From NCBI GenBank assembly GCA_964016885.1, contig OZ024743.1, positions 213,776,001-213,840,000 on the forward strand: a stretch of DNA of 64,000 bases. Reading direction: 5' to 3'. Of the stretch, positions 49,695 to 50,035 are shown piece after piece (position 1 is the stretch's first letter; each line of letters starts with the position of its first letter). Made by a program: the position numbers and the translations under genes. This stretch comes from Eledone cirrhosa (taxonomy: Eukaryota). The notes under the pieces were generated by a model. That model had not been told where the DNA came from. It saw only the letters and a program-made list of their open reading frames with translations, and made no database searches.

Positions 49695-50035
49695 ATAATA
49701 TAAGATCAAAAGATGGTTAAAGGAGTTCAATATATTTTATTATGCGCATTTCAAAAACAAATATCATCAAACAATAATATTTGTGTTTTCATCAGATAAA
49801 ACAGGAGAACATGATATGAAGGCTAAAAAAACACTTGTTGATAGTGCAGTTTTAAATCAACATATTATGTTGATTTAAAACTGCACTATCAACAAGTGTT
49901 TTTTTAGCCTTCATATCATGTTCTCCTGTTTTATCTGATGAAAACACAAATATTATTGTTTGATGATATTTGTTTTTGAAATGCGCATAATAAAATATAT
50001 TGAACTCCTTTAACCATCTTTTGATCTTATATTAT
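49695..50035. repeat. Perfect 170-bp-arm palindrome with an intact HHR in each arm
   Basis: Centre at 49865; no arm mismatch seen. Confidence 0.92.
49929..49995 (+). ncRNA. Type-I hammerhead (mirror copy at 49735-49801 on minus)
   Basis: TTTTAT-CTGATGA-AAAC..GTTTTT-GAAA-TGCGCA-TA-ATAAAA. Confidence 0.88.

What the first reader, a model, noticed from the sequence alone, without database searches (positions are those of the whole stretch)
49695..50035. Perfect palindromic mini-element with an intact hammerhead on both strands
It has 170-bp arms, a 1-nt centre and an HHR in each orientation. Transcription from either side yields a rod-like hairpin in which the ribozyme is paired with its own antisense. 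That makes it a potential source of dsRNA (siRNA/ADAR substrate), a self-silencing form, or a cruciform. The same design recurs with unrelated sequence at 42319 and 62380, so it appears to be a mechanistic product, not a single family.
Basis: partly seen in the sequence, partly recalled or inferred. Interest (0 to 1): 0.72.

Follow-up and report, generated by a model that had tools for sequence, protein, structure and literature searches.

The report
Head-to-head Penelope retrotransposon end pair
The palindrome is real: it is two copies of the ribozyme-bearing front end of a common Penelope-like jumping gene joined head to head in a TA repeat, one of roughly 1,900 such sites in this genome, likely written in one insertion event from both ends of a DNA cut, so it is a known kind of insertion product and not a dedicated RNA device.

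Summary
Observation confirmed: 170-bp perfect arms, 1-nt centre (49865), a type I hammerhead in each arm. The element is longer than stated (49607-50035): the left arm carries an extra 88-nt tail. Both arms are identical to the end repeat (pLTR) of a Hydra-type Penelope-like element with an RT and GIY-YIG reading frame elsewhere in the genome. The same centre occurs at 1,929 sites. In 45 of 50 sampled, one arm is tailed and one short; none had two tails. Arms share subfamily alleles (611 of 615), and palindromes are interleaved with parent copies in a tree, so they arise repeatedly. Centres pile up at one position, often with an extra G (11 of 18 scorable arms), likely the capped RNA start, not the ribozyme cut. 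Best model: both cut ends prime reverse transcription at two fixed sites and the cDNAs are joined. The ribozyme is likely a passenger: the 62380 palindrome has the same layout with no canonical core. Opposite-strand hammerhead pairs and inverted pLTRs are published, and this scan reported the same reading on other DNA of this genome. dsRNA or editing effects are untested.

The parts
49607..49865 (-). Tailed arm: pLTR positions +1 to +259 of the parent Penelope-like element (end uncertain by 2-3 nt in TA)
   Evidence: 259 of 259 identical to L031:6288-6030
49607..49694 (-). Tail, +172 to +259, present on this arm only; its outer end is the inferred far start site of reverse transcription
   Evidence: 8,769 exact matches of a 28-nt tail motif
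49733..49803 (-). Type I hammerhead motif, predicted cut after 49741
49865..49866 (.). Head-to-head junction: +1 of the tailed arm (49865) abuts +2 of the short arm with no inserted base; +1 is the inferred RNA 5' end
49866..50035 (+). Short arm: pLTR +2 to +171, ending at the near fixed end
   Evidence: 170 of 170 identical to several genomic copies including the full-length one
49927..49997 (+). Type I hammerhead motif: helix I 49927-34/49990-97, core 49935-41, helix II 49942-77, palindromic helix III 49981-88, predicted cut after 49989
49590..49608 (.). Left (TA)n target remnant
   Evidence: sequence
50036..50128 (.). Right (TA)n target remnant
   Evidence: sequence

Best explanation
This is a stub-sized, head-to-head insertion of two end repeats of a Hydra-type Penelope-like retrotransposon in a (TA)n tract, likely made when both ends of one cut primed reverse transcription on RNA from the same source element. 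Shown: identity to the parent pLTR, the TA target, one tailed and one short arm, same-source alleles, and a junction hot spot at +1. Inferred: the GIY-YIG nuclease cuts both strands of the symmetric TA target; one 3' end starts copying at about +259 and the other at about +171; both run off a capped 5' end at +1 (RNA started at a promoter in a terminal pLTR); the two cDNA ends are joined bluntly, through the self-complementary ATAT at +1 to +4, or with a few added bases. The hammerheads ride along because they lie between +1 and +171. In read-through from either flank the antisense arm is made first, so the ribozyme would be zipped into a rod and be inactive.
For: Parent: L031 has pLTR, tail, an 821-codon stop-to-stop frame and a second pLTR ending at +171 in TA. 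L032 is the same layout at 6.3 kb, tailed on one side and short on the other. Of the first 50 of 1,929 centre-motif sites, 45 are tailed+short, 1 short+short, 0 tailed+tailed, 4 disrupted. Of 90 consecutive tail matches on C1, 42 have an adjacent inverted short arm; in 14 of those 42 the tailed arm starts more than 20 nt downstream of the short arm's start, several at +160 to +180 (classic twin-priming layout), in 6 the reverse, and in 20 both start near +1. 42 of 84 arm 5' ends lie at -5 to +6, and 3 of 84 near the ribozyme cut at +125. G precedes +1 in 11 of 18 scorable arms, where the parent has C; an added G as a cap copy is discussed in PMC4038843 (passages). Arms agree at 611 of 615 common polymorphic cells; shuffled pairs disagree at 38%. 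A related enzyme cuts and extends both strands in vitro, starts at two sites that bracket the tail, and is predicted to be a dimer (PMC11167929, parts 1-2 read).
Against: No transcription start was measured, and this copy's own junction has no extra G. Perfectly palindromic centres (22 of 50 with the 2-nt spacer, and the CATG inserts) are also what a cDNA hairpin would leave. In the in vitro system the start site did not differ between strands, which does not explain the near-strict tailed+short rule. 15 private substitutions shared by both arms allow some copying of one arm from the other. The 18-arm G count leaves out 8 junctions with a 1-nt centre and 29 overlap junctions. The samples come from one contig (C1).
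Confidence: 0.62

Rival explanations
1. Same parent element, but the second arm is made by snap-back: the first cDNA runs off the 5' end, folds on itself and is copied back to +171.
For: Perfectly palindromic centres are common; arms share alleles; self-priming was proposed for head-to-head Penelope junctions in PMC3846280 (passages).
Against: In 14 of 42 pairs the short arm holds 5' sequence that the tailed arm lacks, which snap-back from a tailed cDNA cannot supply, and snap-back from a short cDNA cannot add the tail. The short end is also the normal end of full-length copies without an adjacent inversion.
Confidence: 0.22
2. The palindrome is a self-propagating non-autonomous family (MITE- or retrozyme-like) that is copied as a unit.
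For: 1,929 sites with a near-constant size and centre; the label is more clustered on the tree than shuffles (18 changes against 26.7).
Against: Palindromes and parent-type copies are interleaved (at least 9 changes forced by well-supported branches; nearest neighbour parent 16, palindrome 14, tie 19 of 49; this copy's arm is identical to L031). Identical arms carry different junctions (L138, L159, L177).
Confidence: 0.06
3. The locus is a selected RNA device: a dsRNA, siRNA or editing substrate, or a self-silenced ribozyme switch.
For: Stable rod that hides the ribozyme; both cores intact in 34 of 50 sampled palindromes.
Against: Older copies decay arm by arm (56 one-arm against 15 shared private substitutions); the same layout arises without a canonical core at 62380. 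By-product dsRNA from copies inside transcripts remains possible.
Confidence: 0.07
4. Fold-back artefact of library preparation or assembly.
For: Perfect arms; no read set covered the unique flanks (depth 0 at 49480-49612 in 4 of 4 runs).
Against: Arms end at two fixed family ends with different lengths, in TA; older copies are diverged. Contigs of runs X1 and X2 cross the centre without a difference (49841-49889/90, depth 58), and one raw read of X24, another study, is laid across it. Those contigs have only 24-25 nt per side, below the tool's 31-nt bridging rule, and X1/X2 may be the assembly's own sample.
Confidence: 0.03

Closest known systems
EN+ Penelope-like element insertions with an inverted 5'-truncated copy and a one-sided tail (PMC8557442; PMC3846280)
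   Same: Head-to-head pLTRs, tail at one end only, microsatellite target, palindrome at the junction (passages).
   Different: Tail is 88 nt, not 30-40; both arms are cut down to pLTR only; the junction position is highly recurrent.
Dual minimal hammerheads on opposite strands in Schistosoma mansoni PLEs (PMC4209133)
   Same: Two hammerheads about 100-700 bp apart on opposite strands, long helix II, palindromic helix III suited to dimer cleavage (parts 1-2 read); cores here are 140 nt apart.
   Different: Helix II is 15 pairs with A-U at its base instead of the usual G-C; helix I is 8 bp.
Hydra clade PLEs, e.g. Hydra-1_Obim (PMC8557442)
   Same: DKT, CxCX5C linker, CxxC and CxH motifs, hammerhead, (TA)n target; N-terminal and RT stretches resemble Hydra-1_Obim by eye (supplement passage).
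   Different: RWT in place of RWK; repeat unit 3.9 kb owing to a long 3' UTR; not placed on a tree with the published proteins.
Poseidon of Anolis carolinensis in vitro (PMC11167929)
   Same: Two internal RT start sites bracket the tail; both strands cut and extended; AT-rich target; hammerhead dispensable for insertion.
   Different: That study gives no model for inverted copies and saw no strand difference in start site; here pairs are nearly always tailed+short.
L1 twin priming (recalled, not read here)
   Same: Two primers from one target site give an inverted 5' part.
   Different: Here the two arms often cover the same RNA stretch in full, so the RNA would be read twice or two RNAs used.

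Membership tests
Type I hammerhead ribozyme (PLE type) | CUGANGA and GAAA cores, NUH site, helices I and II | tested here: met
Type I hammerhead ribozyme (PLE type) | Short palindromic helix III that needs a dimer | tested here: met
   8-nt palindrome; intermolecular duplex -10.5 kcal/mol; closing it in the monomer costs 2.9 kcal/mol
Type I hammerhead ribozyme (PLE type) | G10.1-C11.1 pair, usual in PLE hammerheads | tested here: not met
   A-U at the base of helix II in this family; feature from PMC4209133
Type I hammerhead ribozyme (PLE type) | Self-cleavage | not testable with these tools
   no assay
EN+ Penelope-like element | pLTR flanking one RT plus C-terminal GIY-YIG frame | tested here: met
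   L031 pLTR-ORF-pLTR with RT and GIY-YIG-type motifs read from the translation; Pfam gave no RT or nuclease hit
EN+ Penelope-like element | Hammerhead in pLTR, optional tail, inverted truncated 5' copy | tested here: met
Hydra clade | DKT; CxCX5C linker; CxxC and CxH; no CCHH in the nuclease core | tested here: met
   motifs read by eye in the L031 frame against section 11 of PMC8557442
Hydra clade | RWK motif | tested here: inconclusive
   RWT in L031; RWK in the 40%-identical family behind 62380
Hydra clade | (TA)n insertion | tested here: met
Hydra clade | Generally under 3 kb (a tendency, not a strict rule) | tested here: not met
   pLTR-to-pLTR spacing 3,913 bp in L031
Hydra clade | Groups with Hydra RTs in a phylogeny | not tested
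   published proteins seen only as supplement passages
MITE / self-copying foldback family | Copies descend from one another as a unit | tested here: not met
   interleaved with parent-type copies; identical arms with different junctions
Non-LTR retrozyme | Head-to-tail tandem monomers of a few hundred bases with no linked ORF | tested here: not met
   arms are pLTRs of an ORF-bearing element; the separate 42319 family does show tandem units

The most novel reading that the evidence does not exclude
Hydra PLEs insert by obligatory asymmetric twin priming: a dimeric RNP primes one cut end at the far site and the other at the near site of RNA from one source, both cDNAs can copy the same stretch through to the cap, and their ends are joined. 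The mini-palindromes are then a genome-wide map of PLE transcription starts and RT start sites, and a standing supply of about 170-bp perfect hairpins for editing or RNA silencing.
Probability: 0.5. Interest if true: 0.5.

Novelty: new member of a known kind. Interest (0 to 1): 0.28.

Why it matters
How Penelope-like elements build their inverted ends is named as an open question in PMC8557442. The near-strict tailed+short pairing, the junction hot spot and the extra G give specific predictions for the existing in vitro system. As a locus it is ordinary: one young copy among about 1,900. If many copies lie in transcripts they would be a large dsRNA load, which is untested.

Tried and rejected
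Rfam: only hairpin-driven, below-threshold matches, no hammerhead. Pfam: no RT or GIY-YIG hit for either PLE frame. An 87-nt DNA search of the tail returned nothing; a pattern search then gave 8,769 matches. Sequencing runs: no RNA holder listed, so expression is open. Reads did not cover the unique left flank; run X4 laid nothing on the centre. The protein atlas did not answer. Junction at the ribozyme cut: rejected, 3 of 84 arm ends. Single-arm folding is not exceptional against shuffles (z -1.8 and -1.5), and in the isolated tailed arm helix I is predicted at only 0.02 while helix II forms. Literature searches for a published twin-priming model of PLE inversions and for octopus PLE hammerheads gave nothing beyond the cited papers; the library lacks most subscription papers. 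bioRxiv 10.64898/2026.07.22.740005 was searched for passages only (its supplements are closed). Look-ups of earlier notes by sequence and nearby place were blank. Whether the locus lies in a host intron was not examined.

Full report
Observation. The stretch 49695-50035 equals its own reverse complement at every position except the centre, 49865. Each arm has a type I hammerhead motif with an 8-bp helix I, a 15-pair helix II, a palindromic 8-nt helix III and an AUA site. A strict descriptor finds 4 such motifs in the window and none in 100 simulated windows. Rfam does not detect it. Folded whole, the RNA is a single rod in which the hammerhead helices have pairing probability 0.0; in the isolated right arm helix I forms at about 0.75 and helix II at 0.86-0.99.

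The element is larger than reported. A search of the own genome (G000, 3.0 Gb) returned 51 matches from 40 scored candidates. In the 30 loci fetched, copies end at one of two places: at the end of the right arm, or 88 nt further on, both followed by (TA)n. The left arm has that extension, so the insertion spans 49607-50035, with one tailed arm (+1 to +259) and one short arm (+2 to +171).

Parent. L031 holds a pLTR identical to the tailed arm over 259 of 259 bases, followed by an 821-codon stop-to-stop frame and, 3,913 bp on, a second pLTR that stops at +171 in TA. [quoted passage not shown] It resembles Hydra-1_Obim by eye (supplement passage); no tree with published proteins was made, and Pfam gave no domain hit. 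L032 is a 6.3-kb head-to-head pair of the same family, tailed on one side and short on the other, so the finding is the small end of a size range.

Counts. A 28-nt tail motif has 8,769 exact matches (control 0). I examined the first 90 on C1: 84 end at the tail end and 6 continue into the ORF. Of the 84, 42 have an adjacent inverted copy ending at about +168 to +181, 1 has an inverted copy that runs off the locus, and 41 have none within reach, many because their 5' end lies beyond the reference or the fetched flank. Among the 42, both arms start near +1 in 20, the tailed arm starts more than 20 nt downstream of the short arm's start in 14, and the reverse holds in 6 (one pair falls in two classes, three in none). 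Of 84 arm 5' ends, 42 lie at -5 to +6 and 3 near the ribozyme cut after +125. A pattern for the centre matches 1,929 sites (control 0). Of the first 50, 45 are tailed+short, 1 short+short, none tailed+tailed, and 4 have a disrupted arm; both cores are intact in 34, one in 13, none in 3.

Junctions. 29 of 50 join by overlap in the self-complementary bases at +1; the rest are blunt or carry a few added bases. Leaving out those 29 and 8 with an ambiguous 1-nt centre, the base before +1 is G in 11 of 18 arms, T in 5 and C in 2, whereas the parent has C. An added G at a cDNA end is discussed as a copy of the m7G cap in PMC4038843 (passages). I infer that +1 is a capped start. This copy's own junction is blunt with no G.

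Origin of the arms. In 42 palindromes the two arms agree at 611 of 615 common polymorphic cells, against 38% disagreement for shuffled pairs; private substitutions are in one arm in 56 cases and in both in 15. So both arms come from one source and mostly decay independently afterwards. In a tree of 49 palindrome arms and 35 parent-type copies the two kinds are interleaved (18 changes, at least 9 forced by well-supported branches; shuffled mean 26.7; bootstrap not fully settled), this copy sits with L031 at distance 0, and identical arms carry different junctions. The palindromes are therefore made repeatedly rather than copied as a unit.

Mechanism. A related Penelope enzyme cuts and extends both strands, starts at two sites that bracket the tail, is predicted to be a dimer and does not need its hammerhead for insertion (PMC11167929 parts 1-2). 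The simplest fit is twin priming: one cut end starts at about +259, the other at about +171, and the cDNA ends are joined. Pairs in which the tailed arm covers little more than the tail are the classic single-RNA outcome; the full palindrome needs the +1 to +171 stretch copied twice. Snap-back, proposed in PMC3846280, fits the palindromic centres but not the 14 pairs in which the short arm has the longer 5' reach. These steps are inferred from insertion anatomy, not observed.

The other two sites. 62380 is the pLTR pair of a second Hydra-type family (40% identical protein), again tailed+short, as are its larger pairs L220 and L225; no canonical core was found there. 42319 is tailed+short with one intact and one mutated core; its family shows head-to-tail units of about 323 bp and no linked ORF in the 20 loci seen, apart from one RT fragment in L202. 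The layout thus does not depend on an intact hammerhead.

Artefact check. Contigs from X1 and X2 cross the centre without a difference, with 24-25 nt on each side, and one raw read of X24 is laid across it. X1 and X2 may be the assembly's sample, and no run covered the left flank. The class is real; this locus is likely real but not confirmed flank to flank.

What is known. Dual hammerheads 100-700 bp apart on opposite strands were reported in PLE remnants (PMC4209133 parts 1-2), and inverted 5'-truncated copies with a one-sided tail are standard for the class. My searches found no paper stating the tailed+short rule or the cap-site junction. Earlier unreviewed notes of this scan reached the same reading on other DNA of this genome; they gave me the Hydra and cap leads, which I then tested, and they are not independent support. 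Those notes call the host an octopus; I did not establish that. Verdict: real, a new member of a known kind, interest 0.28.

Noticed in passing
window 62205-62840: Tailed+short pLTR palindrome of a second Hydra-type family with no canonical hammerhead core found; tail about 175 nt.
   Followed up: yes
window 42275-42800: Tailed+short palindrome of a hammerhead repeat whose relatives form about 323-bp head-to-tail units (retrozyme-like); right core intact, left core mutated.
   Followed up: partly
window 27641-31310: 666-bp inverted arms (98%) around a 508-aa PLE thumb and nuclease frame at 28293-29819, 36% identical to the parent protein.
   Followed up: partly
window 38128-38177 (-): Solo hammerhead of a related family, same helix layout, ending in TA.
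   Followed up: no
window 37626-37992: 181-bp-arm palindrome ending in (CT)n(TA)n on the right; no hammerhead core found.
   Followed up: no
window 49208-49417: Small palindrome with one extended arm between TA runs, no hammerhead core in the part scanned; related pieces at 49016-49135 and 62880-62935.
   Followed up: no
window 48851-49019 and 49419-49587: Older inverted pair (88%) with other elements nested in its TA centre; the finding is inserted in the TA run at its right end.
   Followed up: no
window 50129-51346: About 421-bp unit in tandem plus inverted copies directly right of the finding, with a relative at 27229-27439; no hammerhead core found.
   Followed up: no
window 14955-15016 and 15462-15523 (-): Two hammerhead-like cores 507 bp apart in the same orientation, with a 5-bp helix III but weak helix II.
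   Followed up: no
window 26189-26895 and 60222-60633: Further PLE fragments by tblastn.
   Followed up: no
L031:6914-7504: Nuclease end of a different PLE family lies inverted upstream of the full-length parent, across a run of N.
   Followed up: no
window 465-1964, 9137-9577, 21461-22090: Fragments that look by eye like a LINE RT, a mariner transposase and an RTE-type RT.
   Followed up: no
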